Source of the DNA: Candidatus Woesearchaeota archaeon
GTDB taxonomy: Archaea; Nanobdellota; Nanobdellia; Woesearchaeales; ARS49
Direction of reading: 5' to 3'
NCBI GenBank assembly: GCA_038891615.1
Contig: JAWADY010000002.1
Coordinates: forward strand, 64,994-128,993
Length of the DNA: 64,000 bases
The translations under genes were made by a program, and so were the position numbers. This document shows positions 7,821 through 51,431 of the stretch, piece by piece. Position 1 is the first letter of the stretch; each line of letters starts with the position of its first letter. The notes beneath the pieces were generated by a model. That model was not told the origin of the DNA. It saw only the letters and a program-made list of their open reading frames with translations, and made no database searches.

Positions 7821-7821
7821 A

Positions 7822-8352
7822 ATGGCAAACAATGCATCTCCAAGCAAAAAGGCTCAGATAAAGATGTTTGAGAATATCGCTGTCCTCGTGATATTCTTTT
7901 TTCTTCTGGCTTTTGGTACAAGCTTTTACTTTACACTTCAAAAAAGTTCCCTTCAGCGTGAAATGGAACGCATTGCGCAGCTTGGAAACATTCAGCAGGC
8001 GCTTAGGCTTACATTCTTACCAGAGCTTGACTGCTCATTTGCTGCTGTACAAACTGAAAATTGTTTTGACAGGCTTAAGTTTGATGCTCTTGCAGATCAG
8101 CTTAAACCAGGTAGCCAGCGATGGCTTGAGTACTCTGCAATCCTTGGTTTTACTAGTATAAAACTAAAGACTGTTTATTCCAGCCTCTCTCCCCCGCCTG
8201 AAGAGAAACTTCTGTACGAAAGAAAGCTGAACGCAACTGCAATTCGCACAGAGATTCCTGTCTTGATTTGTGAAAACGGTTGCGACCCGCTAAATCAAAG
8301 CTATTCCTTCGGCATCCTTGAGGTGACAAGCTATGTTAGAAGGGCAACCTGA
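7822..8352 (+). CDS. prepilin-like protein, 176 aa
   Basis: N-terminus is MANNASPSKKAQ/IKMFENIAVLVIFFFLLAF. The start lies 1 nt after the upstream stop. Confidence 0.65.
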   Translation: MANNASPSKKAQIKMFENIAVLVIFFFLLAFGTSFYFTLQKSSLQREMERIAQLGNIQQALRLTFLPELDCSFAAVQTENCFDRLKFDALADQLKPGSQRWLEYSAILGFTSIKLKTVYSSLSPPPEEKLLYERKLNATAIRTEIPVLICENGCDPLNQSYSFGILEVTSYVRRAT

Positions 8353-8854
8353 TGGCATTGCTGTGTTGAAGGGATTAAAGAGAGCAAAAGGCGGGCAAAT
8401 GGAAATAATTGGTCTAACAATCATCATTCTTCTTGTTATAATTGGGGTGCTTTTTGGAATACAGTTTGTGCTCAAGGCAAAGCCGCCCACAATTGGACGA
8501 GAGTTTAGGGAATCGCAGTACGCAGCCAACTTCCTAAGCACTCTTACAGGTACAACAAGCGCATGTAATGGTTTGAGCATCACACAACTTTTACAGAACT
8601 GCGTGACAAGGACAGGGATTGACTGTCCATCAGGAAAGGGTGCTTGTGAGGAGGTTGAGGCTCTTATAGAAACAATCCTTGATAAAACAATTGGCAAGTC
8701 GGGACAAAACAGAGCATACCAACTTATGGTAAAAGGCAGCAACATTGACATTACTAAGTCTAATCGGGGAGGATGTCCGGGCGAAAAAGAGGTTGCAGAA
8801 CACACACTTCCAACAAGAGCTGGAGTAGTTTCTATACGCCTCGAGTTGTGCTAA
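8333..8854 (+). CDS. prepilin-like protein, 173 aa, Cys-containing
   Basis: N-terminus is ...LKRAKGGQ/MEIIGLTIIILLVIIGVLF. It overlaps the upstream gene by 20 nt and is the last gene of the operon. Confidence 0.6.
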   Translation: MLEGQPDGIAVLKGLKRAKGGQMEIIGLTIIILLVIIGVLFGIQFVLKAKPPTIGREFRESQYAANFLSTLTGTTSACNGLSITQLLQNCVTRTGIDCPSGKGACEEVEALIETILDKTIGKSGQNRAYQLMVKGSNIDITKSNRGGCPGEKEVAEHTLPTRAGVVSIRLELC

Positions 8855-12543: not shown

Positions 12544-12798
12544 ATGTCAAAAGGTCAAGGCATTTCAATTAATGTTATCATAATAGCTGCGATTGCACTG
12601 CTTGTTCTTGTTGTTCTTTCTGTTATGTTCATAGGCAGGATAGGACTCTTTGGAGTTAAGAGTGTTTCTTGCACAGAACAGGGAGGAACATGTTCTGTTG
12701 ATGTCTGCCCAGCAGGGACAAGGGAGTACACACCTTGGAGGTGCCCTGATACTCCTGAGGGGGCAAAGCAGCGCTGCTGCGTGGCAATAGGGGTGTAA
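12544..12798 (+). CDS. small 6-Cys prepilin-like protein (84 aa), candidate major pilin, paralog 1
   Basis: Sequence is MSKGQG/ISINVIIIAAIALLVLVVLSVMFIGRIGLFG followed by a 6-Cys globular tail ending ...QRCCVAIGV. Confidence 0.75.
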   Translation: MSKGQGISINVIIIAAIALLVLVVLSVMFIGRIGLFGVKSVSCTEQGGTCSVDVCPAGTREYTPWRCPDTPEGAKQRCCVAIGV

Positions 12799-12809
12799 GT
12801 GAATTTTCA

Positions 12810-13079
12810 ATGGCAAAAGCGCAAGGGCTGCCAATAAACACAATCATTATCGTTGCGCTAGCACTTGTTGTTCTTTTAGTCATTGCAGCCATTTTTACTG
12901 GTCGTATACAGCTTTTTGGAAGAGCGCTAAGCAACTGCCCAAAAGGAGAGGGGAAGTGGTGCACAGACAACCCTTCGGATTGCGCAGCTGGCAACGCAGC
13001 AGCAAGTCCGCTAAAAAATTGCAACGAAGATGCTGACCCTGAACCAGAAGGGAGCTATTGTTGCATACCATTGGCATGA
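12810..13079 (+). CDS. small 6-Cys prepilin-like protein (89 aa), paralog 2
   Basis: Sequence is MAKAQG/LPINTIIIVALALVVLLVIAAIFTGRIQLFG with a 6-Cys tail ending ...GSYCCIPLA. Confidence 0.75.
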   Translation: MAKAQGLPINTIIIVALALVVLLVIAAIFTGRIQLFGRALSNCPKGEGKWCTDNPSDCAAGNAAASPLKNCNEDADPEPEGSYCCIPLA

Positions 13080-13366
13080 GAATGGGCAAAATGAGCGGAA
13101 AAAAGGGTGCTGAAGCCATTTGGTACATAATCGCGCTTGTCATTGGGCTAATAGTTCTTGTTGTGCTGGTAGCATTATTTACAGGAAAGGTAAAGCTGTT
13201 TGGCAAGGCAGGAGAAGAAATCGAAAAAGGTGTTCGTGGAAATCTTTGTTTTGAGCAGGGTTTTTGTGAAGCGGGCACTGCTTGTCCTCCTGGTTCAACA
13301 GCAATCCCGCGCCCTGCTGCTGGCTGGACAGATTGCACAGGGATTTGTTGCAAGCAAGTTGGATAA
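13076..13366 (+). CDS. small 6-Cys prepilin-like protein (~96 aa), paralog 3
   Basis: Sequence is MRMGKMSGKKG/AEAIWYIIALVIGLIVLVVLVALFTGKVKLFG with a 6-Cys tail ending ...CTGICCKQVG. The start is chosen at the ATGA overlap (13076). The track start 13058 and the ATGs at 13082 and 13091 are alternatives. Confidence 0.7.
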   Translation: MRMGKMSGKKGAEAIWYIIALVIGLIVLVVLVALFTGKVKLFGKAGEEIEKGVRGNLCFEQGFCEAGTACPPGSTAIPRPAAGWTDCTGICCKQVG

Positions 13367-13398
13367 AGTTTTTATACGCAAGAGCCACTTGATTTTTT

Positions 13399-13512
13399 AT
13401 GCACAAAAGAGGCGTTGAAAAAAGCACTTTGTTATACCTCATCCTAATCCTTATCTTTCTTGCGCTTGCAGCCTATATTCTTGTGAGAATTGCTGGGAGG
13501 ATTTTTGGATGA
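13399..13512 (+). CDS. 37-aa mini prepilin-like ORF (not in the supplied track)
   Basis: My translation is MHKRG/VEKSTLLYLILILIFLALAAYILVRIAGRIFG*. The stop overlaps the next start (ATGA at 13509-13512), and the orientation and operon are the same. Confidence 0.5.
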   Translation: MHKRGVEKSTLLYLILILIFLALAAYILVRIAGRIFG

Positions 13513-14225
13513 GCCTGCTCATTGTCAGAAGGAAGGGAATAACAGAAACAGGATTAGTGGCAATAATCCTTGTCCTTGCCTCTGGCATTGTTCTTGGAGC
13601 TCTTGTCTATCAGTTTACTGTTAAGGGGAAGCAGGTTGGCTCTATCGAGCTTTGCAGACAGAATGTGCTAACTGCTAGCAAAGTTGTAGCGCTTGGCAAA
13701 GCAGATATTTGGCCAATCACCAACTGCTTTACAGAAGACCTTGGCAAACTTCCAGAAAAAGAAGAAGAAGCCATTACTCTGATTGCCGAGGGTATTAGGA
13801 AGTGCTGGTACATGTGGGGCGAAGGAAAGCTAACTCCATGGAGCTCTACATGGCTATCAAGAAACATCATGTGTCATGTTTGTACGATGTTTGAGCCAAG
13901 CGCAGAAGTGAGTATTGAAAAGCTTCATGGTTGGATGAGGACTCACAACATTCCTGGCAAAGAATTAACCTACTATGACTTTTTGAAAGAAGGCTACATC
14001 CCTTTCATCTATCCAGCACTTGAAGAAGAAGCCAAAGCCAAAAAAGTTGACCTCACAAAAGGAATGAAATGGGCTGTCTTTTATGCCTATGGAACGCGCG
14101 CGGATTGGCTAAGATTTCCCCTCATTGGTGGACTTGTGCTTGAAGAACCAAAACAAGGCGTTGCCTTCCTGCCGACAAATGAACTCGGAGGCATATGTAC
14201 ATATACTACGATAAAACTCAAATGA
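13509..14225 (+). CDS. prepilin-like protein, 238 aa (CW..GEG..C.VC family, paralog a)
   Basis: N-terminus is MSLLIVRRKG/ITETGLVAIILVLASGIVLGALVY. The motif ...IRKCWYMWGEGKLTPW...MCHVCTMF is shared with the next gene. Confidence 0.7.
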   Translation: MSLLIVRRKGITETGLVAIILVLASGIVLGALVYQFTVKGKQVGSIELCRQNVLTASKVVALGKADIWPITNCFTEDLGKLPEKEEEAITLIAEGIRKCWYMWGEGKLTPWSSTWLSRNIMCHVCTMFEPSAEVSIEKLHGWMRTHNIPGKELTYYDFLKEGYIPFIYPALEEEAKAKKVDLTKGMKWAVFYAYGTRADWLRFPLIGGLVLEEPKQGVAFLPTNELGGICTYTTIKLK

Positions 14226-15145
14226 AAAGGGCGCAAGTAACAACACAGACACTCTTGGTAGTGCTCGTGCTTTTACTCGTAGCAGCTGTCATCTTTATTT
14301 CTTTTCAGACAAGACTCTTTGGCTTAGCAGAAGCCAAAAGTGCAAAGGATGTTTGCAAAACTTCTGTCTATGCCAATGCGCTGCTTGGAAGAAGTGTTGG
14401 AATCTTTTCTTCGGATATAAAATGTCCAACTCAGTATCTTCAGATAGACAATAGTGATGTTGCACATGCAAAGTTTGAGATTGCAAAAGCTCTGTCAGAT
14501 TGTTGGGAACAATTTGGAGAAGGCAGGCTTGAGCTTTTTTCTGGAGAAGGTGTTTTTTGTTCCGTATGTCATTTGATAACTTTTAAGCACAAAGAAAAAG
14601 CAATAAGCGGGCTTTTAGACTATCTTGCAACTAACAAAAAACCCCTTACTGACAAAAGCTATCTTGATTATCTAACAAGCTATCACACTTCAGGAAGCGA
14701 GGTTCTTAAGGCATATGCAGCTGAAAAGCTCCCGCCTGACATTCTTGACCCATCGCGAGGCAACACCTATGCAACAATCTTCTACTATGTCAAGGGTAAA
14801 GACCATGTGAAGGATGTTATTGAAAGAGCCCAAGCAGCAGCACCTGGCATTGGGCTTGAAGCACTTGGTATCGGATTGATAAAGGCAGGCAGTGCAACAG
14901 CTGGCTTGATTTCAGCAACCGGCATTGGTGCGCCTCTAGGTGTAGTTGTTGCAAAGGTCTCAACAATTGTCGGCGGAGTTTTGATTGTTGGCGGAGCAGG
15001 CTATGCCCTCCTCGCTGGTTGGTTCGGCGGAGTCCCTGTAGAATTCCTCTCACAAGTACGCCTCGAGCCTTACAACGAGCAAACGCTTAAAAACCTCGGA
15101 TGCCAAATCCTGCCTGCAGCTGAAAAAGCAGAGGTTGGAAGGTGA
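14222..15145 (+). CDS. prepilin-like protein, ~307 aa (paralog b) with a Gly-rich hydrophobic C-terminal region
   Basis: The start is taken at the ATGA overlap (14222): MKRAQ/VTTQTLLVVLVLLLVAAVIFISF. It carries the motif ...LSDCWEQFGEGRLELF...FCSVCHLITF. The C-terminal segment is GIGLEALGIGLIKAGSATAGLISATGIGAPLGVVVAKVSTIVGGVLIVGGAGYALLAGWFGG. Confidence 0.7.
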   Translation: MKRAQVTTQTLLVVLVLLLVAAVIFISFQTRLFGLAEAKSAKDVCKTSVYANALLGRSVGIFSSDIKCPTQYLQIDNSDVAHAKFEIAKALSDCWEQFGEGRLELFSGEGVFCSVCHLITFKHKEKAISGLLDYLATNKKPLTDKSYLDYLTSYHTSGSEVLKAYAAEKLPPDILDPSRGNTYATIFYYVKGKDHVKDVIERAQAAAPGIGLEALGIGLIKAGSATAGLISATGIGAPLGVVVAKVSTIVGGVLIVGGAGYALLAGWFGGVPVEFLSQVRLEPYNEQTLKNLGCQILPAAEKAEVGR

Positions 15146-15279
15146 TGAAAAAAGGCATATCCCGCGAGGCATTTGTTTACATACTCTTGGCACTTATTGC
15201 AATCCTCATTGGAGTAATCTTGATAATTTTTTGGGGAGGCGGGGCAGAAAAGGTCCTTAAGTCTCTTGGTTTGGGATAG
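15145..15279 (+). CDS. 44-aa mini prepilin-like ORF (not in the supplied track)
   Basis: My translation is MKKG/ISREAFVYILLALIAILIGVILIIFWGGGAEKVLKSLGLG*. The start overlaps the upstream stop by 1 nt (TGATG). Confidence 0.5.
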   Translation: MKKGISREAFVYILLALIAILIGVILIIFWGGGAEKVLKSLGLG

Positions 15280-15284
15280 CTCAA

Positions 15285-15641
15285 ATGGACAAAAAAGCTG
15301 TTGCAATAGAAACAATAGTCATCCTTCTCCTTGCACTTGTTGCTCTCCTTTTCTTTACAGTCCTTGGAGGAAAGCAGCTTCAATTGGGCAAGAAAATAAG
15401 CTTTTTCATGCCGGGCTGCCCAAAGGGTGTTTTAATAACCACAGAATGTCCATGTGATGGCCAAAAGATAAGTTCAGGTTATTGCTGTGATTTTGGACCA
15501 AGCCAAAAGCCTTGCTTTTGCGTAGAGCGAAATGTTAATAAGTGCGAGGATTACAAAAAGCAAGAGGATTGTGTAAGCAATCCTTGCCAAGTTCAAACTG
15601 CTTGCACCTTTGAACAAGGTGTTTGCAAAAGGGCTGGTTAA
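15285..15641 (+). CDS. Cys-rich prepilin-like protein, 118 aa (12 Cys)
   Basis: N-terminus is MDKKA/VAIETIVILLLALVALLFFTVLGG. The tail is CPKGVLITTECPCDGQKISSGYCCDFG... Confidence 0.7.
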   Translation: MDKKAVAIETIVILLLALVALLFFTVLGGKQLQLGKKISFFMPGCPKGVLITTECPCDGQKISSGYCCDFGPSQKPCFCVERNVNKCEDYKKQEDCVSNPCQVQTACTFEQGVCKRAG

Positions 15642-15645
15642 ATAA

Positions 15646-16071
15646 ATGGCAAAAAAAGGGGTAAGTGGAATACAGGTCGTCATAGCACTTTTGATTGGCA
15701 TCATAGTGCTCTATGTTGTTGTGGCTTTTATGCAAGCACAGTTCAAGAAGGCTGGAAAGAGTATCGAGGAAATAACTCCTTCCACAATCAGCTTTGCGCT
15801 GCAAGGCTGCAGGCTCCAAGCCGCACGAGGTTTTTCTGATGCAGATAAGGATGGATATCCCGACTTTTGTGATGTCTGCGAAGGCGGTGATGACGGAAAG
15901 CACAGCGATGCTGACTGGGTTCCAGATGATTGTGATGCGCATGAAAAAACAAAAGGGCTTCCTGCAAAGGAATGTGGTTGTGAAAAGCCAGAAATGGATT
16001 CTGAAGGCAGGCTGATAAAGAGCTGTGGGAGGCTTCTTTCAATCGAGCCATTTAAGTGCGCGAAAAAATGA
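15646..16071 (+). CDS. prepilin-like protein, 141 aa, with an acidic D-rich/Cys segment
   Basis: N-terminus is MAKKG/VSGIQVVIALLIGIIVLYVVVAF. The segment DADKDGYPDFCDVCEGGDDGKHSDADWVPDDCD looks like a Ca-binding site. Confidence 0.7.
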   Translation: MAKKGVSGIQVVIALLIGIIVLYVVVAFMQAQFKKAGKSIEEITPSTISFALQGCRLQAARGFSDADKDGYPDFCDVCEGGDDGKHSDADWVPDDCDAHEKTKGLPAKECGCEKPEMDSEGRLIKSCGRLLSIEPFKCAKK

Positions 16072-16088
16072 ATTTGGTAAAATGAAAA

Positions 16089-16949
16089 ATGAGCAAAAGG
16101 AAAGGCCAGGAAGAAGTTGGAAGGATGCTTTGGGAACTTGTTGCGCTGATACTGGCAGTAACTGTTATCATTGGAGGGATATTGTTTTTTGGAAGGGCAT
16201 TTGGATTTATTGGTGAGAGCAAAGAGGAACAGGACACAATCTCAAGCTTTTACAGCCTTGCAACAAAACTAAACGAACTGGCGCTGCTTTCAGAGTCATT
16301 CGTTCATGACAGGCTACCACTTTTTATTGGGGAAGGATTTGTAATTGTTGGCTTTGACAAAGCTGGAGATATTTCTGTCAATGGTTGCAGCGATGAAACA
16401 CATCTTGGAGTTCCAGCTACTGACCTCATCCCAAAGCCAGAGTTCTGTGGCGAGTTTGCTTGCATATGCCTCTATTCTGGCATTAGCGAAGAAGTCGGCG
16501 AGAAGCAGCCAATTTCTTGTGCCAAAATTTTCGCTGACAGATTGATTGGCTTGAGTAGTGCGTATCTTGAAAAAAACTATCCCTCTTTTGAGTCTTTTTG
16601 GAAAAACGCAATGGGCTCTCGTAGGGATAAGCCAGAACTACAAAGGTTCATGGTAACAGGGACAGAGCCTTTTAGCACTCTTCTCGAAAAAGACTATCCT
16701 CTTTTCCCAAGCTTTGAAAGCTACCCCTATACCTATTTTGTTCTTCATGGTGAGTGTGAAAACTGGTGGTTTGATGCCAACTTTGGCACACAAAGCCTCT
16801 ATCTTGAAAAAGTGAGGATAAAAGACAGGAACTATTTATTTATCACCGCAGACATCGAGGACTTTGTAAACAAAAGGGTTGCTGCAATAAAGGATTGGCT
16901 AGAGAAGCAAAAGAGTCAAGAGAAAGCCGAGGGAGGGCTGGTTGGTTGA
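16089..16949 (+). CDS. prepilin-like protein, 286 aa
   Basis: N-terminus is MSKRKGQ/EEVGRMLWELVALILAVTVIIGGILFF. Confidence 0.65.
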   Translation: MSKRKGQEEVGRMLWELVALILAVTVIIGGILFFGRAFGFIGESKEEQDTISSFYSLATKLNELALLSESFVHDRLPLFIGEGFVIVGFDKAGDISVNGCSDETHLGVPATDLIPKPEFCGEFACICLYSGISEEVGEKQPISCAKIFADRLIGLSSAYLEKNYPSFESFWKNAMGSRRDKPELQRFMVTGTEPFSTLLEKDYPLFPSFESYPYTYFVLHGECENWWFDANFGTQSLYLEKVRIKDRNYLFITADIEDFVNKRVAAIKDWLEKQKSQEKAEGGLVG

Positions 16950-17784
16950 AATGGTTGTGATTGGCAAGCGAGCCGTTGTTCATCCAGTTGCTCTGACAAT
17001 TGCAGAGCTTATTTTAGCCGCAATTATTGTCCTTGCAATGTACAATTTTGCCTCAAGGGCAAGAGAGCCTGGAAGGCTTGAAAAAGAGTTTGTTGCAAAA
17101 GACCTTGGCTTGCTGCTTGACGCCGTTTCCGTTGGCCAAGGGAGTTACTATTTGGTTTACACATCACCAGCCCTTCATCAAGATTTCAAGATTTCTGCAG
17201 GCGCCCACGAGGTTGTTGTTGATGGCTCAAGGCAGCCCTACGCATCTGGGCGTATAGAAATAAAAGGAGATTCCTTTGGAACAGATAAACTTGTGATCTG
17301 GTCTGAAACTGGAATTCTTGGCACGCCTTCAGCAGTCAAAGGTCACCTGCTACAGCTTCCTTGCGAAAGCCCACTGTCTTTTTCAACTGATAGGCAGCTT
17401 GCGGTAGCTGCTGATGATGGTGCCAAACAACTTGTTGAAAGACTTTTTGTCAAGGACTTAGGGAAAAGGCTGTTGTCAAATGATGAGAAAGGCGCAAGTG
17501 CGCTATTAAAAATTTTCACAGGAACAAAAAATGGGACAGCGAAGGCATATTTTTGGAAGGATGATAAGTCAGCAAGGTCGCTTGCATGCGCCCTTTTGAA
17601 CAGCATTGTCGCTTTTGAAGGAACCAATTCAGCCCTTCTTCTTCCGCTTAATCCTGAGCTTGCACCAAAGCGTTTTGCAGAGCTTGAGAAACAAAAGCCA
17701 GCTGTCTTCCTCGAGCTAGGCCCAGACCTTATTTCAAGCCCTGAACTTGCTCAGGCACTTTATGGTGGTGTTCGAAGTGGCTGA
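16942..17784 (+). CDS. prepilin-like protein, ~277-280 aa
   Basis: N-terminus is (MVE)MVVIGKRA/VVHPVALTIAELILAAIIVLAM. The track start is TTG at 16942; the ATG at 16951 lies 1 nt after the upstream TGA. Confidence 0.6.
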   Translation: MVEMVVIGKRAVVHPVALTIAELILAAIIVLAMYNFASRAREPGRLEKEFVAKDLGLLLDAVSVGQGSYYLVYTSPALHQDFKISAGAHEVVVDGSRQPYASGRIEIKGDSFGTDKLVIWSETGILGTPSAVKGHLLQLPCESPLSFSTDRQLAVAADDGAKQLVERLFVKDLGKRLLSNDEKGASALLKIFTGTKNGTAKAYFWKDDKSARSLACALLNSIVAFEGTNSALLLPLNPELAPKRFAELEKQKPAVFLELGPDLISSPELAQALYGGVRSG

Positions 17785-18325
17785 AAGGCAACAAGCAAAC
17801 ATTTTTAGCAAAAAGGCTCAACTCCTTAGCCATCACACAAAATTTCTTTTCATAAGCCTTCCATTTGTTATTATCTCCGCTCTTGCGTTGTTTCTTCTCG
17901 CAAACAGGTTTCTTGAAATAAGAGTAAATACCTTTCCCCTCGAGGCAAACGCATTTGTTGAAAGCATACTCTACTCATCTGCTGGGCTGGCTTATGTTGA
18001 CAATGTAACCGGGATTACCTATTCTGGAATCATAGACATCACAAAACTTGAAGAAAAGGACATTGGAAAAAGGTTGTCTAAGGCTTTTAACTATGGTGAA
18101 GGGCAAAGTTACCTTGCAGCAAAGCTTCTGATTGGTGATAGGACAATTTTCTATAACAACGAACCAGAAGCACCTTGGTATGACCGCTGGAAACCAAAGG
18201 TTGGGCTCAAGGGTGCTGGCGGAGTGCAATCGGTTACTTTTGTTAAATATGTGCTCATCAAAAATGGAAGTATGTTAGAACCTGCAACCGTTTACATAGA
18301 GTTGCTCAAGCCTGGTGAGGGCTAA
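17747..18325 (+). CDS. prepilin-like protein, ~180-192 aa (start uncertain)
   Basis: N-terminus is ...IFSKKAQ/LLSHHTKFLFISLPFVIISALALFLLA. Candidate starts are 17747, ATG 17762 and GTG 17777, and all overlap the upstream gene end (17784). Confidence 0.55.
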   Translation: MLRHFMVVFEVAERQQANIFSKKAQLLSHHTKFLFISLPFVIISALALFLLANRFLEIRVNTFPLEANAFVESILYSSAGLAYVDNVTGITYSGIIDITKLEEKDIGKRLSKAFNYGEGQSYLAAKLLIGDRTIFYNNEPEAPWYDRWKPKVGLKGAGGVQSVTFVKYVLIKNGSMLEPATVYIELLKPGEG

Positions 18326-18900
18326 TGGTAATAAATGGAAGAAAAGGCGTTGTTGGGGAGCTATTAGTTGCATTTCTCTCTTTTGCAGGCCTTGCTCTTA
18401 CAATCCTACTCTTCACTTTCATATTCTCTCCAGCAGACTTTCCTGGTCCTCAAACTTTGACCGTGCTTAATGAAGGAGAAACAGATGGCAAACTTAGACT
18501 GCTGACCATTCTTCGCTCACCAGTTGTTTTTGATGGGGAGAAAATAGATTTTGCAGACATGATTGCACTTTGGCAAGGAAAGCAAGAGCCGCTCGAAAGC
18601 ATTCTTCACTCAGAGCTTGAAAAGCTGCTTAATAACAAGCTAAGTTATGAGTTCGAGCATGCTGGTGTCAAATTTGTGCGCACTTATGCTTTTGCCATTT
18701 ATAGCATAAAAGACGATTTAAGTCGTGGCAAAGAACTAATGAAAGTAGAGGCAAGCGGCTATTCAGGAGGTAAAGAAATAGCCTCAACTCATGTTGCATT
18801 AAAGGATGGCAATGTGCTTGAGGTTGTGCTATTTTCAAGCGCGCAAAAAAAGCCATCCAAAACTCCTGTTTCGAGCGCTTCATCCATACCTATAAAATAA
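18325..18900 (+). CDS. prepilin-like protein, 191 aa
   Basis: N-terminus is MVINGRKG/VVGELLVAFLSFAGLALTILLFTFIF. There is a TAATG start/stop overlap at 18323-18327. Confidence 0.65.
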   Translation: MVINGRKGVVGELLVAFLSFAGLALTILLFTFIFSPADFPGPQTLTVLNEGETDGKLRLLTILRSPVVFDGEKIDFADMIALWQGKQEPLESILHSELEKLLNNKLSYEFEHAGVKFVRTYAFAIYSIKDDLSRGKELMKVEASGYSGGKEIASTHVALKDGNVLEVVLFSSAQKKPSKTPVSSASSIPIK

Positions 18901-18901
18901 A

Positions 18902-19870
18902 ATGGTCAAATCAAACAAACGCGCAACAATCTTTTTTGAACCACTAATACTTTTGGGGTTAATCGTTGCTCTTAGCATCGCAGCTATTTCTGTTAGCCAA
19001 AAAAGGTCCTCTTTTGGAACAATTGGCAGACCAGCTGCTGACCTTCTTAATTACAATGACTTTGGTGAAGAACTTCTTTTTAAGGTTGAACAAGCAGCGA
19101 GGTTTGCAGTTCGCGATGCGCTTTATGAGTTGGGTGCAAATGGTTGGAGTGCTGAAGGTCCAAACTTAGGTTGTGATAGCCAGCCAATTGGCAAGCCTTT
19201 GCTTATCGAGAGCTTTCCTACACCACAGGAGATTGTTGAAGAACTAACAAAAATTTCTGATAGGAAGCTTAGGGCTTATTCGCTCAGGGCTTCGCAGCTC
19301 CTTGGTCTTGGGAGGTTGGGCTTCCACTTGCCAACAGGTATTGAATATGAGTGGTTTGTTGAGCACTCTGGTGGGCTGTTGAGAGTGAGTGGCATTGCTG
19401 ACAAGCCAGTTACCTTCTCATTTAGCTCATACGAGGTAGGTAAACCAACACTCTACGGCCAGCCGCTGCCACTGCCAACTGCTTCAGTTGTTTTTATTCC
19501 TCTTGAACGTCCAAAACAGCCAGAAGCCCTGCTCTTGCTTTATGGCAATTATTCGATAAGGCCGTCCTTCACAGTCTGGATAGATTACGACCTTTTCGGC
19601 GTCTATGAAAGAATAAAAGAAGGCGTTGAGCAACTCAAAACAATCATTCAGGAAAACAGGGCTCTTGGTTTTGAGGTGACAGACCTGGCGCTCAAAAACA
19701 AAGTCAAGGAGCTGAATTCTGCGCAGGGAGAGCTTGTTTGGCAAGTCCCTAAGAGGACAAGTGAAGATCCGGCTATCTACTCTTTTGTTATTTCTCATAA
19801 GAAGCAGCTTTTAGGATGCAGTCAGCCTATTCAAATAAGGTTTGCGATGAGAATTCCATTAGCTGCTTGA
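18902..19870 (+). CDS. prepilin-like protein, 322 aa; last gene of the operon
   Basis: N-terminus is MVKSNKRA/TIFFEPLILLGLIVALSIAAISV. The start lies 1 nt after the upstream stop. Confidence 0.65.
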   Translation: MVKSNKRATIFFEPLILLGLIVALSIAAISVSQKRSSFGTIGRPAADLLNYNDFGEELLFKVEQAARFAVRDALYELGANGWSAEGPNLGCDSQPIGKPLLIESFPTPQEIVEELTKISDRKLRAYSLRASQLLGLGRLGFHLPTGIEYEWFVEHSGGLLRVSGIADKPVTFSFSSYEVGKPTLYGQPLPLPTASVVFIPLERPKQPEALLLLYGNYSIRPSFTVWIDYDLFGVYERIKEGVEQLKTIIQENRALGFEVTDLALKNKVKELNSAQGELVWQVPKRTSEDPAIYSFVISHKKQLLGCSQPIQIRFAMRIPLAA

Positions 19871-38264: not shown

Positions 38265-40454
38265 TTAGCCAAATCTAAGGGTTGCTGCCATTATTCTTAG
38301 GGCAATAAAGTTGAAAAGCAGAATCACAAATAGTGCAACGATGGTGTAAAGTGCTGTGCTTCTTATAAGATTCCTTCCAAGCACATAACGCTCGCCAAGC
38401 TTGTCAGCGCCGTTTTCTATGCCGTTTGCAAGGATAGTGAGTATTGCAATAATTTCAACAACATAGATGCCAACAACGAGCTGGAAATAATAAGTCGGTA
38501 TACCATCGCCAAGCAAGCTTGCAATTGAACTAAGCTTTTCTCCAACATCAGGAGTCTGGAGCTTTGAGAATTGGTGTGACAATGCGCCAATGATTGTTGT
38601 TATCATTGATGTTATCCCAATAACTATCCCTGCGATGGTGGGTGCAAGGAAGTTTATTTGTGATTTCATGTCTGCAATTATGTCAGCCATAAGGTCCTTT
38701 AGACGCTCATTAACCCTGTGTATCTCTTTTATGTACCTAGAGACATTCATGAGTGCTTGAGCAGCTATCTTTGGACCTTTCTTTATGCTTTCAACAAGCA
38801 CCTTCATTGAACTTTCCACTACTGCGCTCGGGAAGTATGTTAGTGCACCAATCCGTGGATGAAATATTGCGTCTCTCAATCCAAGTCCAAGCTTTCTTAT
38901 GTTCGTGGAGATGACGGCAAAGAAATTTCCTGAAACAGTTTCTCCCATAACCTCCGCAACGTTACCAACTGCCATTTCGGCAGGAATTCCATCACCAAGT
39001 CTATTTCCAAGTTGGAAAAGGGCAGATGCAAACTCTTCTTCAAGCCTTTTTGTTCGTTCTCTTATTTTTATCACATTGCTGCTTCTCATCCTAAAGTATA
39101 TGCCAAACCCTAACCCAAGCGCAAGTGGGAAAAGAAGAGATATGACAGAAGCACCAAGCCCATAAGGTCCGAGCTTTTTACCTACCAACCTTATCGAATC
39201 CCTGTATTCGAGAAGGCAGATAAGTCTTTTACATGTTGTTGTTTCTGTTTCAGCACCAAAACCCATATCAAATTCTGGTGAAAAGGCGTGAATAAGTAGC
39301 GGTGACATTGCGCCGATGAAGAGAACGCCTGCTATAACTACTGCTACAATTGCGGGATTAATTGTAAGTTCTGTTCTTCCAATCTTCAAAATAATGTTTT
39401 TGTACCTTTTCAGCTCTGGATTTATTTCTGAGATGTCGACATCTCCATATCCAGTTGGCCTTGTTGAAAGAATGTTTGTGCCCAGATGATAAACTCCAAG
39501 TGGCAGCAGTATGTTGTACAGAATGGCAACGTGATACCACTTTACTCCTTCGATAAAGCTTACAAGGAGAGGGAGTATAACAAGTCCAAGAACTGGAAGG
39601 ATTATTCCTAACATATGAAGGGTTGTTATTGGGCTCTTAAGATTATGGGCATAGTGCAGCATCTTTTCATAAGTCTCCTCAAGAATAACATCGAGGCTTT
39701 TGTCAAGGAGAGCCAGTCTTGCCTCTTCAGTAGGCTCGTAAAGCGAACCTTCAATAAGATGGAATGCTTCTACAAACTCTCTGTTCCAGTTTTTCCAGCC
39801 TTCAAGATAAACATCAAGGCTTTCCTTTACTGTATCATAAATTCCTGATTCTACATTCCACAAGACTTTCTTAAGGTCTAGAGAAAGAGGAGGCGCAAGG
39901 TGTTCTGAAGCAAATTGCAATGCAAGCTCGAGGTTCGAGGTATGCCGCATGTAGGTAACAACATAGAAAATGCATAGCACCATCTGATTTGATGCACGCA
40001 TTCTCCAGGTATTCGCAATTGTATATGGAAGATTTCCGAGAAGTGGAAAAAGCAGTATGCCAACAATAGTGCTCAGCATCGCGAAGAAGAACGAACCAAG
40101 AAGTATTGATATTAAAATTCCAAAAAGCATAACTGCAAGCGGTGCAACCGTTGAAAAGGCAACAGCCTCTTCAGGCCTTATTTCAAGGTGTGCAGTCTCG
40201 ATAGCCTCTTTTAGCTTCTCAAGCCTTTCTGTTTTGAGCCTAAGTCTTATCAGCTTTCCAGAGAACCTGCAGAGCTTTTCATAAAATGTCAGAGGTCTGG
40301 GAAACATTTCCTCCTTAAATTCCCTATACTCTCTTGTGATTATCCTTCTTGGAATTTGAGGAGGGCTCTGACCTAACTCCTGCTCAAGTCTTTCTTTGTA
40401 TTTTTGAACGAGAGACTTAACTTCTTCTTTTGCTCCTGGAGAGAGGTTGTTCAC
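38265..40454 (-). CDS. FlaJ/PilC/TadC-family polytopic membrane platform protein of a type IV filament system
   Basis: This 729-aa multi-TM protein has two cytoplasmic helical domains and lies immediately downstream of the ATPase. The GTG start is preceded by GAGGTGG. The stop abuts tRNA-Phe. Confidence 0.75.
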   Translation of the reverse strand: MNNLSPGAKEEVKSLVQKYKERLEQELGQSPPQIPRRIITREYREFKEEMFPRPLTFYEKLCRFSGKLIRLRLKTERLEKLKEAIETAHLEIRPEEAVAFSTVAPLAVMLFGILISILLGSFFFAMLSTIVGILLFPLLGNLPYTIANTWRMRASNQMVLCIFYVVTYMRHTSNLELALQFASEHLAPPLSLDLKKVLWNVESGIYDTVKESLDVYLEGWKNWNREFVEAFHLIEGSLYEPTEEARLALLDKSLDVILEETYEKMLHYAHNLKSPITTLHMLGIILPVLGLVILPLLVSFIEGVKWYHVAILYNILLPLGVYHLGTNILSTRPTGYGDVDISEINPELKRYKNIILKIGRTELTINPAIVAVVIAGVLFIGAMSPLLIHAFSPEFDMGFGAETETTTCKRLICLLEYRDSIRLVGKKLGPYGLGASVISLLFPLALGLGFGIYFRMRSSNVIKIRERTKRLEEEFASALFQLGNRLGDGIPAEMAVGNVAEVMGETVSGNFFAVISTNIRKLGLGLRDAIFHPRIGALTYFPSAVVESSMKVLVESIKKGPKIAAQALMNVSRYIKEIHRVNERLKDLMADIIADMKSQINFLAPTIAGIVIGITSMITTIIGALSHQFSKLQTPDVGEKLSSIASLLGDGIPTYYFQLVVGIYVVEIIAILTILANGIENGADKLGERYVLGRNLIRSTALYTIVALFVILLFNFIALRIMAATLRFG

Positions 40455-40482
40455 TAGTCCACCTCTTTTTGCAATTTAGCCC

Positions 40483-42753
40483 TTATCCAATCGCGAATTC
40501 CTTTTTAATACTCCTCTTGAGCCACTCATTCCATTCGAAAAATATTCTTTCTGTATCAAGCCTTCCAACTTCCTCAAGTATCTTATCCGAGATGTTGTGG
40601 AAGGCATCATTTGCAGTTATAACAAACTTTGCCTCAAGAATGTCTGGTCTTTTGAGAGCTCTGGCTGTCTCAACCAGCGTTTCTTTGATTCTTGCTCTTA
40701 AGTTTATGTTCTCCCACACTGCATCCCAGTTGCCAGCCCATTCTTTTACATTTGAAGCAATTGCCTTTAGCACATCGCTGTCGCCAGCAAGAAGGTCTTG
40801 TGTTGGCTGCAGCGTGTCTGTGCGCACATCGTATCTCATCAAATCAACGAAACCTTTCTCTGCAAGAGGGTCTTCTTCCCAAAACTTTCTTACTTCTGTG
40901 ATTTGGGTTATCCTTCTCCACCTATGCAGGCCATCTGGACTTCTTATCGGATTTGCCACAACAATGAGATCTGTCGCCTTAAAGGATGTTCTTGGAACAC
41001 CAAGGTCATTAACAACTCTATCAAAGACACCGTACGGGCTGTCGCCGTGAATCGTTCCAGCAACGACATTTGCGAGGGCACCAACTCTCATTGCTTCGTA
41101 GAGCGCGCGAGCCTCAACAGACCTTACTTCTCCTATGATAAGGCTGCTGTCTCCCAGCCTAAGTGTTGTACGCAAGCCTTCTTCTGCAGGCACTTCTGTT
41201 GTTCCACGGGTCAATGCGCTGGCTACCTTCATAGATTGAATGTTGTAGCCAAGCTCGCGCAGAGAGCTAACTGGTAACTCAAGTGTATCTTCTATGGTCA
41301 ATACTCTTATCCTGCGCATTATCTCTGTCATAAGCGATGCCAGAAAAGATGTTTTTCCTGCAGATCTTGTACCTGCGATTAGCATTGTTCGCGCGCCATC
41401 GATGCAAAAGCTCAGAATGCCTGCGCCAAGAGGGCTAATCATTCTGTTTTCTATGAAAAGTGGAAGAGTCCATGGCTTGTCGCGATGCCTCCTGAAGCTA
41501 TACGCAATACCTGTTGGGTTCAATGGAGCTGTTATTGCCGCAATCCTTGCACGCGCTCTTGGTATAATAAGTTCTGTATCAAGAATTGGATTTGCCTCAT
41601 CAAAAGGCCTATTCGAGAGAAGTCTCAGCTTTGAGGCCCAGCTTTCAGCCTCGCTTGCTGTTGGCACAATGTTTGTCATGCAGTCAGCATAATCAGCCTG
41701 TACAACAAATATTGGAATCCTGCCCATGGGACTGTTAACCGAGATATCCTGTATTTTTTCATCCTGAAGAAGAACTTCAACAAGTCCAAAGCCAACTGTG
41801 TACCTCACTAGGATGTTTGCAAGCTCCTGCAGTTCTTTTTCTCGAAGTTTCAGGCCGCGATACTCCGCAAGTTCCTCAAGAAGGTCAGAACCAATCCGCT
41901 CAAAAACCTGCCTCATACGCTCCGGGTCTACGAACTCTGAGCGTTTTGGCTTGTGTTCTACGATAATATTTCTCGCAGAATCAAGGAGCTCATACTTCTC
42001 CTCACTAAGCTTGAATTCTGGAGGAATAATATGATAAAGGTATTGTACCGTGTTCGGTAGGGAAAAGATGTTGACTTCTGTTCCATTTACAATGTAGCTC
42101 TCAAGCAGCTCTGCATCCGGCGGAAAGCTTGACATTAGTTTGGTAAACATAAAGTCTGGCTTTATTGTCGGCGAAAATATTCTTCTATAAATGTCCCTCT
42201 CGCCAACCTTGTATCCTGCTAATTGCTCTTTTGCAAGCTTGATGAGTGTTGTTTGTTGGAGTAAGCCAAGTGCGTCCTCCACTGCCTTAAGATAGCGCTG
42301 CAGGCACCTCTGGCCTTCGGGAGAGGCATGCTTAAGATATTCTCTTTCTCGTCTTGCAATGCGCTCCAGCTCAACATAAGCTCCCACAGGATCGCTTTTT
42401 AGCATTGTATGTAGGATTGACTGCAGCTCTGTGTATCTCCTTGTTAACCATTTCAAGCACGTCATATCAGATAAGAAGCCATACGCCAATCTTCTGCGTA
42501 GCAGCTCCTTGTACGCAATTGCTATCTCATTAAGTATTGCTGTTTGAGTGCCATCATATTCATAATCGCGCTTTTGCACAAAAACAATTCTTGTAACTGT
42601 GCCAACCTCTGCAAGAATGTCAATTGTCATTGACATTGTTTTTGGAGAATCTTCAATTGAGGGAAAAAATGTGCAGGCCTCTGCATCTATTCTAAGAATT
42701 ATCTCCTCACCTTCTCTTATAATCTCGTAGCTGAAACAACCTCTATCAGGCAT
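40483..42753 (-). CDS. FlaI/PilB/VirB11-family type IV filament assembly ATPase with an enlarged N-terminal region (~756 aa)
   Basis: Motifs are Walker A IAGTRSAGKTSFL, Walker B/Asp box RVLTIEDTLEL and His box VAGTIHGDSP. The start is set to the ATG at 42753, preceded by GAGGTGGGAGG; the track start at 42780 is a TTG. Confidence 0.85.
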   Translation of the reverse strand: MPDRGCFSYEIIREGEEIILRIDAEACTFFPSIEDSPKTMSMTIDILAEVGTVTRIVFVQKRDYEYDGTQTAILNEIAIAYKELLRRRLAYGFLSDMTCLKWLTRRYTELQSILHTMLKSDPVGAYVELERIARREREYLKHASPEGQRCLQRYLKAVEDALGLLQQTTLIKLAKEQLAGYKVGERDIYRRIFSPTIKPDFMFTKLMSSFPPDAELLESYIVNGTEVNIFSLPNTVQYLYHIIPPEFKLSEEKYELLDSARNIIVEHKPKRSEFVDPERMRQVFERIGSDLLEELAEYRGLKLREKELQELANILVRYTVGFGLVEVLLQDEKIQDISVNSPMGRIPIFVVQADYADCMTNIVPTASEAESWASKLRLLSNRPFDEANPILDTELIIPRARARIAAITAPLNPTGIAYSFRRHRDKPWTLPLFIENRMISPLGAGILSFCIDGARTMLIAGTRSAGKTSFLASLMTEIMRRIRVLTIEDTLELPVSSLRELGYNIQSMKVASALTRGTTEVPAEEGLRTTLRLGDSSLIIGEVRSVEARALYEAMRVGALANVVAGTIHGDSPYGVFDRVVNDLGVPRTSFKATDLIVVANPIRSPDGLHRWRRITQITEVRKFWEEDPLAEKGFVDLMRYDVRTDTLQPTQDLLAGDSDVLKAIASNVKEWAGNWDAVWENINLRARIKETLVETARALKRPDILEAKFVITANDAFHNISDKILEEVGRLDTERIFFEWNEWLKRSIKKEFAIG

Positions 42754-42867
42754 GTGAAGTCCTCCCACCTCTTTGAGCAAAGGTTTTTAGCACTTTGACA
42801 TGGTTACACAATTTATTATCCTGCTAAGCAAAACCTTATTAAAGCAAATTTATAAGCTTTTGCAAAA

Positions 42868-51385: not shown

Positions 51386-51431
51386 TTTTCCTTTAAATTA
51401 AAGAACTCTTTTAAAGTTTTCCAGTCGTTCG

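What the first reader, a model, noticed from the sequence alone, without database searches (positions are those of the whole stretch)
13399..15279. Two unannotated mini-ORFs (37 and 44 aa) consist of little more than a prepilin leader plus helix
Seen in sequence (my own translation; both are below the 60-aa cutoff of the supplied track). ORF 13399-13512 is MHKRGVEKSTLLYLILILIFLALAAYILVRIAGRIFG*, and its stop overlaps the next start (ATGA). ORF 15145-15279 is MKKGISREAFVYILLALIAILIGVILIIFWGGGAEKVLKSLGLG*, and its start overlaps the previous stop (TGATG). Both fill gaps in the operon that would otherwise be non-coding, and both carry the same leader logic as their neighbours. Inference: these are headless pilins, consisting of an N-terminal helix only. 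Such proteins could cap, terminate or prime filaments or act as assembly regulators. Gene callers would normally miss them.
Basis: partly seen in the sequence, partly recalled or inferred. Interest (0 to 1): 0.6.

Follow-up and report, generated by a model that had tools for sequence, protein, structure and literature searches.

The report
Two conserved mini membrane-protein genes
Two tiny genes (37 and 44 codons) in the pilus gene cluster of a Woesearchaeota archaeon are real, conserved genes for one-helix membrane proteins; the 44-codon one looks like a pilus subunit reduced to its stalk, the 37-codon one does not reliably.

Summary
Both ORFs exist exactly as described. They are not chance ORFs. 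In about 27 non-redundant related loci from DPANN archaea, whose flanking proteins are only 25-40% identical, a same-strand single-helix mini-ORF sits directly upstream of the 238-aa-type gene in 21 of 27 loci and directly downstream of the 307-aa-type gene in 20 of 26. Composition-matched shuffles predict 0.7 and 1.3. Non-synonymous change is well below synonymous change.

The order mini1, A (238 aa), B (307 aa), mini2 is a conserved four-gene cassette.

Mini2 (15145-15279) has a Shine-Dalgarno site and a 1-nt stop/start overlap. Its family keeps a [KR][GA] prepilin-type site before the helix in 15 of 17 members. It is most likely a helix-only, pilin-like protein, analogous to bacterial Flp pilins, but it matches no pilin profile.

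Mini1 (13399-13512) has a TATA-like box about 29 nt upstream, as in 16 of 22 loci, so it is probably the first cistron of a leaderless mRNA. Its KRG site is not conserved (9 of 22). It is more likely an unprocessed membrane accessory.

"Unannotated" is only half right: mini2 is already a hypothetical protein in GenBank. Processing, filament incorporation and function were not tested.

The parts
13369..13376 (+). TATA-like box (TTTTTATA). It ends 23 nt before the mini1 ATG, so this is a predicted archaeal promoter for a leaderless transcript starting at about 13399.
   Evidence: Sequence. A TATA-like hexamer lies at -34..-26 from the mini1 ATG in 16 of 22 loci, against 24 of 163 control ORFs (Fisher p = 4e-8). 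The transcription start itself is inferred, not mapped.
13399..13512 (+). mini1: 37-aa single-pass membrane protein (N-terminus MHKRGVEK, hydrophobic helix of about 21 residues, tail RIAGRIFG). No Shine-Dalgarno site. Its stop overlaps the start of gene A (ATGA).
   Evidence: Slot conserved in 21 of 27 loci. pN 0.34 against pS 0.66.
13509..14225 (+). Gene A (238 aa): N-terminal RKG site plus helix, then a Cys-containing domain (CW..GEGKL, C.VC). It is a paralogue of gene B. Its Shine-Dalgarno site GGGAGG (13495-13500) lies inside mini1.
14222..15145 (+). Gene B (307 aa; an alternative start at 14195 gives 316 aa): N-terminal helix, Cys-rich alpha/beta head, Gly-rich hydrophobic stretch and a C-terminal Cys. 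It belongs to a large uncharacterised family.
   Evidence: 1,923 cluster representatives at E <= 1e-3.. No Pfam, NCBIfam or PDB match.
15131..15144 (+). Shine-Dalgarno-like stretch GAGGTTGGAAGGTG immediately upstream of the mini2 ATG.
   Evidence: Other genes of the operon use GAGGT or GGTG sites.
15145..15279 (+). mini2: 44-aa protein with MKKG|ISRE (a class-III-signal-like site), a hydrophobic helix, a GGG break and a short amphipathic tail (EKVLKSLGLG).
   Evidence: Slot conserved in 20 of 26 loci. Site conserved in 15 of 17 members. AF2 model: helix 7-30, break, helix 34-40, pLDDT 82.8.
15285..15641 (+). 118-aa Cys-rich protein with a pilin-like N-terminus. Its leader and helix are the closest match to mini2 within the window.
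   Evidence: z = 5.7-6.1, with 0 of 500 shuffles reaching the score.
12544..13366 (+). Three short (84, 89 and about 91 aa) Cys-rich pilin-like genes with K[GA]QG or KKG sites, upstream of the cassette. They are candidate major pilins.
   Evidence: No profile hit, so this reading rests on motifs only.
38265..42780 (-). Candidate type IV filament assembly machinery: a 765-aa ATPase with a T2SSE domain (40483-42780) and an adjacent 729-aa protein with about 8 hydrophobic segments (38265-40454).
   Evidence: PF00437, E = 1.5e-12. (hydrophobic segments). No family hit for the 729-aa protein.

Best explanation
Both mini-ORFs are real protein-coding genes for single-helix membrane proteins of about 35-50 aa. 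They bracket two paralogous Cys-rich 'helix-plus-head' proteins: A (238 aa) and B (307 aa). The order mini1-A-B-mini2 is a conserved cassette inside the pilin-like gene clusters of Woesearchaeota, Nanoarchaeota and related DPANN archaea.

Mini1 is the first cistron of a transcription unit. It is probably translated from a leaderless mRNA and is translationally coupled to A through the ATGA overlap. Its prepilin-like KRG site is not conserved in the family. It most likely stays in the membrane, unprocessed, as a small accessory or partner of A and B.

Mini2 is coupled to B through the TGATG overlap and a Shine-Dalgarno site. In other lineages it has its own promoter. It keeps a conserved [KR][GA] site ahead of the hydrophobic helix, like the pilin-like proteins around it. 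It is most likely cleaved by the archaeal prepilin peptidase and acts as a helix-only, pilin-like subunit. In architecture it resembles bacterial Flp pilins. It would be either a minor filament subunit or a membrane-proximal part of the assembly.

Shown here: the coding status of both ORFs, the conservation of the cassette, the motif statistics and the expression signals. Inferred only: cleavage, membrane topology, binding partners and any role in the filament.
For: Synteny. After a full HMMER scan for relatives of A and B, related loci were fetched. A TM mini-ORF sits in slot 1 in 21 of 27 loci and in slot 2 in 20 of 26. Shuffles predict 0.7 and 1.3.

Sequence relatedness. Window mini2 ...IIFWGGGAEKVLKSLGLG resembles L021 ...IIYWTGGGGKIISSLFGGR. 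Window mini1 MHKRGVEKSTLLYLILIL resembles L022 MHKKDGKLPTKSLIHLVLVL and L009 SPKTLVYLIIFL.

Selection. dN/dS is 0.15-0.48 wherever dS is finite. Pooled pN/pS is 0.34/0.66 for mini1 and 0.41/0.76 for mini2.

Expression signals. A TATA-like box lies at -29 from the mini1 ATG in 16 of 22 loci, against 15% of control ORFs (p = 4e-8). Mini2 has a GAGGT...AGGTG site and an overlapping stop/start. Mini2 is annotated in GenBank, and homologues are called as genes in several sources.

Leader logic. Mini2 has [KR][GA] in 15 of 17 members. Its KKG|IS matches the predicted KG|IS processing site listed for Sulfolobus UpsB, and it meets the rule of G/A/S at -1 and a charged residue at -2 (PMC4371748). The mini2 HMM next hits only the N-terminal 30-40 residues of pilin-like proteins on the operon strand. 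Above-composition similarity to neighbours' N-termini has a best-match z of 3.2-9.8 in every locus.

Mini1. [KR][GA] occurs in 9 of 22 members, the N-terminal net charge is <= 0 in 11 of 22, and the C-terminal tail is positive in 20 of 22.

Structure. The AF2 model of mini2 is one helix plus a short amphipathic helix.
Against: There is no transcript, ribosome-profiling or peptide evidence.

No prepilin peptidase gene lies in the window, so cleavage is inferred from a two-residue motif plus context.

Five to ten partly polar residues lie between the putative site and the hydrophobic core. This departs from the strict 'site precedes the H-domain' picture, although the neighbours share it.

Neither family hits any pilin profile or solved pilin.

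Even the neighbours are 'pilins' by motif only. B has no recognisable pilin fold in the PDB.

The window's own mini1 does carry KRG, so it could be processed in this lineage.

Slot-1 proteins may not be a single homologous family.

The dN/dS values rest on 30-50 codons with near-saturated dS. Alignments of hydrophobic helices are partly driven by composition.
Confidence: 0.6

Rival explanations
1. Both mini-proteins are headless type IV pilins: both are cleaved by the prepilin peptidase and built into the same filament as the neighbouring pilins, as caps, primers or terminators.
For: Both window copies have a [KR]G site followed by a helix. Window mini1 resembles the leader and helix of B (z = 5.4-6.1), and mini2 resembles that of the 118-aa gene (z = 5.7-6.1). 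Helix-only pilins can polymerise: the mature Caulobacter Tad PilA has 45 residues and no globular domain (PMC10710030).
Against: The mini1 site is absent in 12-13 of 22 family members, including close sequence relatives. Many members have acidic N-termini and basic C-tails, which is the opposite of prepilin topology. There is no pilin profile hit. Nothing bears on filament incorporation. If cleaved, mature mini1 would be only 32 residues with almost no polar surface.
Confidence: 0.15
2. Both are membrane-resident small subunits or chaperones of an A/B membrane complex. They are not processed and never enter a filament. The KKG motif of mini2 is only a positive-inside topology signal.
For: The minis are tightly linked to, and translationally coupled with, A and B, which they bracket. 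B carries a second, Gly-rich hydrophobic stretch that would hinder its extraction into a filament. A basic N-terminus is expected for any N-in single-pass protein.
Against: G or A at one aligned position directly after the K/R in 15 of 17 mini2 proteins is more specific than a charge cluster. The mini2 profile matches the leaders of the operon's pilin-like proteins.
Confidence: 0.2
3. The ORFs act mainly as cis-regulatory leader or coupling ORFs. For example, they could be monitoring substrates of the MifM/SecM type, or simple ribosome delivery to the next gene, and the peptides have no function of their own.
For: Mini1 is usually the first small cistron, right at the predicted transcription start. 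Its stop overlaps the start of A, and the Shine-Dalgarno site of A lies inside mini1.
Against: The mini1 region folds no better than shuffled sequence (z = 0.57). No conserved C-terminal arrest motif is seen. Amino-acid conservation, the TM character and dN/dS < 1 point to selection on the peptide. In several lineages mini2 follows B after a gap and has its own promoter, and it is not always coupled.
Confidence: 0.05
4. The ORFs are chance open frames in T-rich spacers and do not code for protein.
For: They are short and hydrophobic. T-rich DNA readily encodes Leu/Ile/Phe runs. Mini1 is not annotated by NCBI and has no Shine-Dalgarno site.
Against: 21 of 27 and 20 of 26 slots are occupied, against 0.7 and 1.3 expected. 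The slots are kept although the flanking proteins are only 25-40% identical. pN is well below pS. In a two-strand ORF set, the 60 best-ranked hits to each mini profile are all on the operon strand. Expression signals are present.
Confidence: 0.02

Closest known systems
Flp/Fap pilins of bacterial Tad (type IVc) pili, for example Caulobacter crescentus PilA (45-residue mature pilin with no globular domain; PMC10710030). The Tad system is thought to derive from archaeal Epd-like pili (PMC6668835).
   Same: Mini2 has a very small precursor with a short basic leader ending in G or A. One hydrophobic helix is followed by a short, more polar C-terminal segment, and there is no head domain. It is encoded among pilin-like genes, in a genome that has a T2SSE-type ATPase.
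   Different: No member matches Pfam Flp_Fap. There is no G/XXXXEY motif. The organism is archaeal. The gene is not next to the ATPase, platform or peptidase genes. Polymerisation is unproven. If cleaved, mini2 would be 40 residues.
Archaeal class III signal peptide proteins and type IV pilins (substrates of PibD, FlaK or EppA, such as Methanococcus EpdA-E and Sulfolobus UpsA/B; PMC4371748).
   Same: G or A at -1 and K or R at -2 ahead of the hydrophobic helix. The window's KKG|IS equals the UpsB-type KG|IS. Six of 17 mini2 relatives have Q at +1, as EppA substrates do.
   Different: All characterised archaeal pilins have a globular C-terminal domain, and these proteins have none. Five to ten partly polar residues precede the hydrophobic core. 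There is no match to Class_IIIsignal, Pilin_N or the archaeal pilin N-terminal NCBIfam model. For mini1 the site is not conserved.
Geobacter sulfurreducens split pilin: PilA-N (65 aa, helix only) plus PilA-C (104 aa head encoded immediately downstream; PMC10710030).
   Same: A helix-only pilin-like gene lies immediately upstream of a gene for a globular extracellular domain.
   Different: The downstream genes here (A at 238 aa, and the 118-aa gene) each carry their own complete leader and N-terminal helix. They are therefore not detached heads.
Small single-pass membrane proteins encoded as first or last cistrons of membrane-complex operons, and upstream monitoring ORFs such as MifM and SecM (this comparison rests on my own knowledge).
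   Same: Size, a single TM helix, overlapping stop/start with the neighbouring gene, and for mini1 the position as first cistron.
   Different: No arrest motif and no significant RNA structure was found. No homology to any named small-protein family.

Membership tests
Archaeal class III signal peptide / type IV pilin-like proteins | G/A/S at -1 and a charged residue at -2, placed before the hydrophobic domain (PMC4371748) | tested here: met
   In the window, mini1 has R4-G5 and mini2 has K3-G4. At family level, mini2 meets it in 15 of 17 members in one aligned column. Mini1 meets it in only 9 of 22 (10 of 22 if D or E is allowed at -2), so for mini1 the feature is not conserved.
Archaeal class III signal peptide / type IV pilin-like proteins | The hydrophobic H-domain starts directly after the processing site | tested here: inconclusive
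   In mini2 about 4-10 mixed residues (ISRE in the window; DITWDEIAK and similar in relatives) precede the hydrophobic core. The pilin-like neighbours show the same pattern (ITETG, VAIE, VSGIQ).
Archaeal class III signal peptide / type IV pilin-like proteins | Match to a curated pilin or class III signal profile (Pfam Class_IIIsignal, Pilin_N, N_methyl; NCBIfam archaeal pilin N-terminal models) | tested here: not met
   No such hit for either window protein, nor for any of the 16 + 21 family members, at E <= 10. Only scattered weak hits to TM segments were seen.
Archaeal class III signal peptide / type IV pilin-like proteins | Cleavage by a prepilin peptidase (PibD, FlaK or EppA) | not testable with these tools
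   No peptidase A24 gene was found among the window ORFs scanned. The rest of the genome was not searched.
Archaeal class III signal peptide / type IV pilin-like proteins | Incorporation into a filament assembled by a PilB/PilC-type ATPase and platform | not testable with these tools
   A T2SSE ATPase and an adjacent polytopic membrane protein lie about 23-27 kb away in the window. This is context only.
Flp/Fap (Tad) pilins | Match to Pfam PF04964 and the G/XXXXEY processing motif | tested here: not met
   No Flp_Fap hit in any member. Window mini2 reads G|ISREAFVY, with E at +4 and Y at +8. Relatives vary.
Flp/Fap (Tad) pilins | Helix-only subunit of about 40-60 residues without a globular domain | tested here: met
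   Mini2 is 44 aa. The AF2 model has helix 7-30, a GGG break and helix 34-40 (pLDDT 82.8).
Split pilin (PilA-N / PilA-C type) | The adjacent downstream gene encodes a head domain that lacks its own leader and N-terminal helix | tested here: not met
   Gene A (13509) and the 118-aa gene (15285) each begin with their own [KR][GA] site and hydrophobic helix.
Regulatory leader / arrest peptides (MifM, SecM, VemP type) | A conserved C-terminal arrest motif and an RNA structure that masks the downstream start | tested here: not met
   The C-termini are variable. The fold of 13399-13545 is no more stable than shuffles (z = 0.57).

The most novel reading that the evidence does not exclude
Mini2 proteins are true archaeal helix-only type IV pilins. 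They would be cleaved after KK[GA] and built into, or priming, DPANN pili, as an archaeal counterpart and possible evolutionary relative of bacterial Flp pilins. The mini1-A-B-mini2 cassette would form a specialised pilus tip or base module, perhaps using B's Gly-rich hydrophobic segment to contact host membranes in these episymbionts.
Probability: 0.15. Interest if true: 0.7.

Novelty: new variant of a known kind. Interest (0 to 1): 0.5.

Why it matters
DPANN archaea are thought to depend on surface appendages to attach to hosts, yet their pilin clusters consist almost entirely of unannotated proteins.

This work shows that two mini-genes and the two Cys-rich genes between them form a conserved four-gene module. 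The A/B family alone has more than 1,900 cluster representatives. That gives a defined and testable unit.

It also adds two small-protein families that gene callers treat inconsistently.

If mini2 is a processed helix-only pilin, it would be the first archaeal analogue of Flp pilins. That would bear on the proposed archaeal origin of Tad pili.

If both minis stay in the membrane, they point to an unrecognised accessory complex of archaeal type IV filament systems.

The practical lessons are two. Short ORFs at leaderless-promoter distance (TATA at about -29) in these genomes deserve annotation. A prepilin-like motif in a single sequence (mini1) can mislead without family-level checks.

Tried and rejected
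- **Identical contigs.** The 12 contigs that carry mini2 exactly are 100% identical to the window over the operon, so they give no substitution data.
- **Word-indexed search with the 238-aa protein.** It found only itself. A full HMMER scan with an A/B core profile was needed.
- **The search for related loci with broad alignments (A3, A4).** It failed for lack of a conserved stretch. A five-sequence alignment worked.
- **Family profiles.** Pfam and NCBIfam on the minis, on all operon proteins and on every member of both mini families gave no meaningful family.
- **Profile searches with the mini families in the 5.8-billion-protein set.** They returned only 18 and 9 short unnamed or hypothetical proteins, several of which are the input members themselves or close relatives. 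The families are too short and too divergent to census this way.
- **Structured-leader or attenuator idea for mini1.** Rejected, because the RNA fold is not significant.
- **Split-pilin idea.** Rejected, because the downstream genes have their own helices.
- **Fixed parent for each mini.** I tested whether each mini is a copy of one particular neighbour's N-terminus. That holds in the window (mini1 with B, mini2 with the 118-aa gene), but the best partner differs from locus to locus.
- **Prepilin peptidase.** A search among the window ORFs found none.
- **FlaFind rule.** The original paper (PMC1797317) is not held, so the rule was taken from PMC4371748.
Full report
**Observation**

ORF 13399-13512 (+) translates to MHKRGVEKSTLLYLILILIFLALAAYILVRIAGRIFG. 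Its TGA overlaps the ATG of the next gene at 13509 (ATGA). ORF 15145-15279 (+) translates to MKKGISREAFVYILLALIAILIGVILIIFWGGGAEKVLKSLGLG. Its ATG shares one base with the TGA of the preceding gene (TGATG). Together they fill two gaps of about 140 nt in a long same-strand run of genes (12544-19870). Every product of that run starts with a short basic segment, usually ending in [KR][GA], followed by a hydrophobic helix.

The window comes from a Candidatus Woesearchaeota MAG. RadA, RPA, RFC and GatE confirm that it is archaeal. The 44-aa product is already a GenBank hypothetical protein (MEM4282203.1, locus tag QXU88_00935). The 37-aa product was called only in one Logan assembly. 'Unannotated' is therefore half right.

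**Are they real genes?**

The 12 contigs that carry mini2 exactly are 100% identical to the window, so they were uninformative. The two genes between the mini-ORFs are paralogues: A (238 aa) and B (307 aa), BLASTP E = 7e-8. A full HMMER scan with their shared core found 1,923 cluster representatives at E <= 1e-3. This is a large family with no Pfam, NCBIfam or PDB relative.

Loci encoding relatives 25-40% identical were fetched from genomes and metagenomes. In these loci A-like and B-like genes usually sit in tandem. A same-strand mini-ORF of 30-58 codons with one hydrophobic helix lies directly upstream of A and directly downstream of B. With fixed criteria, slot 1 is filled in 21 of 27 non-redundant loci and slot 2 in 20 of 26. 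Shuffling each slot sequence predicts 0.7 and 1.3.

The proteins are related in sequence, not only in composition. Window mini2 ...IIFWGGGAEKVLKSLGLG resembles L021 ...IIYWTGGGGKIISSLFGGR. Window mini1 MHKRGVEKSTLLYLILIL resembles L022 MHKKDGKLPTKSLIHLVLVL, L009 SPKTLVYLIIFL and L013 LKTLLYLILLI. Where synonymous distance is finite, dN/dS is 0.15-0.48. Pooled pN/pS is 0.34/0.66 for mini1 and 0.41/0.76 for mini2. These values rest on few codons and near-saturated dS. They are supportive, not decisive on their own. HMMs of the two families were run against all ORFs on both strands of all loci. The 60 best-ranked hits for each were all on the operon strand.

**Expression signals**

Mini2 in the window is preceded by GAGGTTGGAAGGTG, matching the GAGGT/GGTG sites used by other genes in the operon, and it overlaps the stop of B.

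Mini1 has no Shine-Dalgarno site. However, TTTTTATA (13369-13376) ends 23 nt before its ATG. Across loci a TATA-like hexamer starts at -34..-26 (mode -30/-29) from the mini1 ATG in 16 of 22 cases. The figure for other ORFs of at least 100 aa in the same loci is 24 of 163 (Fisher p = 4e-8). Those control ORFs show the same -29 peak, as expected if first genes in these genomes are leaderless.

Mini1 is therefore most likely the first cistron of a leaderless mRNA. The Shine-Dalgarno site of A (GGGAGG, 13495-13500) lies inside mini1, and the ATGA overlap couples the two genes. In several lineages mini2 follows B after a gap and has its own TATA-like box (6 of 17). In the others it is coupled to B. 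The transcription start is inferred, not mapped. The mini1 region has no significant RNA structure (z = 0.57).

**What are they?**

A review of archaeal pilins states three requirements: G/A/S at -1, a charged residue at -2, and a site that precedes the hydrophobic domain. It lists predicted processing sites such as KG|IS (UpsB) and KG|Q (EppA substrates) (PMC4371748).

*Mini2.* Fifteen of 17 members have [KR][GA] in one aligned column. The N-terminus is net positive in 16 of 17, and six members have Q at +1. The window copy reads KKG|IS. Beyond its own members, the mini2 HMM hits the first 30-40 residues of the pilin-like proteins of these operons. In every locus its similarity to at least one neighbour's N-terminus exceeds composition-matched shuffles (best z = 3.2-9.8). 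In the window the best match is the 118-aa gene just downstream (z about 6). AF2 predicts helix 7-30, a GGG break and a short helix 34-40 (pLDDT 82.8). Mini2 therefore has the leader logic of its neighbours and no head. That is the architecture known from bacterial Flp pilins, for example the 45-residue mature Caulobacter PilA, which forms a filament without a globular domain (PMC10710030).

*Mini1.* Only 9 of 22 members have [KR][GA]. Eleven of 22 have a neutral or acidic N-terminus, and 20 of 22 have a basic C-terminal tail. Members that share the window's helix-start motif (L009, L013, L023) lack the site. At family level mini1 is not a class III signal protein. Many members should have the opposite topology (N-out, C-in). 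The window copy does carry KRG and resembles the leader and helix of B (z = 5.4-6.1). It may descend from a pilin-like N-terminus, and processing in this lineage cannot be excluded.

*Limits.* No member of either family matches Flp_Fap, Class_IIIsignal or any other pilin profile, or any solved pilin. The neighbours themselves are 'pilins' only by motif. The AF2 model of B shows a 53-residue N-terminal helix on an alpha/beta head. That is pilin-like in outline but has no PDB fold match. B also has a low-confidence Gly-rich hydrophobic stretch that would fit a membrane-embedded segment. A T2SSE-type ATPase and an adjacent protein with about 8 hydrophobic segments lie about 23-27 kb downstream. 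No prepilin peptidase was found in the window.

**Most likely mechanism**

Mini1-A-B-mini2 is a co-expressed module of membrane-anchored proteins within a DPANN type IV filament gene cluster. This much is shown. Mini2 is probably inserted N-in, cleaved after KKG and used as a helix-only pilin-like subunit. It would be either a minor filament component or part of the membrane-proximal assembly together with A and B. Mini1 probably remains an uncleaved single-pass accessory made at the head of the transcript in step with A. These two steps are inferred.

Rival readings are:
This is weakened by the mini1 family data.
- Both are membrane-resident accessory subunits.
- They are mainly coupling or leader ORFs. 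This is weakened by peptide-level conservation and by the lack of RNA structure or an arrest motif.
- They are chance ORFs. The comparative data effectively exclude this.

**Novelty**

The held papers I consulted describe no such mini-proteins. I read targeted passages of two archaeal pilus surveys, PMC4858521 and the 2026 preprint 10.64898/2026.04.22.720090. I also ran keyword searches of the held library on Woesearchaeota and DPANN pilins. Helix-only pilins are known in bacteria (Flp, Geobacter PilA-N). An archaeal counterpart, and the conserved four-gene cassette, appear to be new. I rate this a new variant of a known kind, with moderate interest. The coding status is solid. The pilin function is plausible for mini2, doubtful for mini1 and untested for both.

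Noticed in passing
window 13509-15145 (genes A and B): A and B are paralogues of a very large uncharacterised family: 1,923 cluster representatives at E <= 1e-3. Conserved motifs are CK.SV, CPT, DCWDQFGEGKLELF, YC.VC and a C-terminal LGC. There is no Pfam, NCBIfam or PDB relative. The AF2 model of B is a 53-residue N-terminal helix plus an alpha/beta head, with a Gly-zipper-like hydrophobic stretch (residues 210-265) of low confidence.
   Followed up: partly
upstream of first genes in loci L005-L047 and at window 13369-13376: TATA-like hexamers peak sharply at -29/-28 from the ATG, both for mini1 and for a subset of ordinary genes. This suggests that leaderless transcripts are the norm for first cistrons in these DPANN genomes.
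   Followed up: partly
window 6831-8854 (+): Three genes (329, 176 and 173 aa) have class-III-like N-termini (KGQIEAPVSW..., KKAQIKMFENIAVL..., KGGQMEIIGLTII...). They resemble the trio that lies directly upstream of mini1 in L009, L013 and L015. In the window the trio is separated from the cassette by a Ser/Thr kinase, a PhoU/MazE-domain gene and an AsnC-type regulator.
   Followed up: no
window 875-6355 (+): A 1,826-aa protein with an N-terminal hydrophobic helix, bacterial TSP3 (calcium-binding) repeats and an Ig-like domain heads the region. It is a candidate adhesin associated with the pilin cluster.
   Followed up: no
L010 1271-1553; L014 3214-3514: Slot 2 sometimes holds two tandem mini-ORFs: 43 aa plus about 47 aa in L010, and 54 aa plus 43 aa in L014. 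Both have a single helix.
   Followed up: partly
L019 6755-7186; L020 6723-7157; L036 3521-3958; L041 899-1327; L044 747-1187: In a clade with a single A/B-family gene, slot 2 holds a protein of about 143 aa. Its N-terminus (GKKGD.EE..WP..I...) resembles that of mini2 in L017 and L043 (KKGDITWDEI...). This may be a 'headed' counterpart of mini2. The mini2 HMM gives 17-22 bits on those N-termini.
   Followed up: partly
L046 2336-2499 (also L047): Two near-identical adjacent segments, each giving a 33-34-codon frame (LSVHPSVVELGDVMITKINFCQFTQAWSNW...), lie between the mini1-like ORF and the family gene. This looks like a tandem duplicated element.
   Followed up: no
loci L011-L014, L016, L018 (record titles): Several MAGs carrying this DPANN-type cassette are titled 'uncultured Methanosarcinales archaeon' (TPA assemblies). 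Others with the same cassette are titled Woesearchaeota or Nanoarchaeota. The Methanosarcinales label looks unreliable.
   Followed up: no
window 38265-42780 (-): The T2SSE ATPase is unusually long (765 aa, with the domain at residues 373-609). The adjacent 729-aa protein has about 8 hydrophobic segments and matches no family. It may be a divergent or fused platform (TadC/PilC-like) protein.
   Followed up: no
window 50075-52739 (-): Two adjacent class II aminoacyl-tRNA synthetase paralogues (436 and 435 aa, both tRNA-synt_2 plus an OB fold). They are presumably AspRS and AsnRS (or LysRS) side by side.
   Followed up: no
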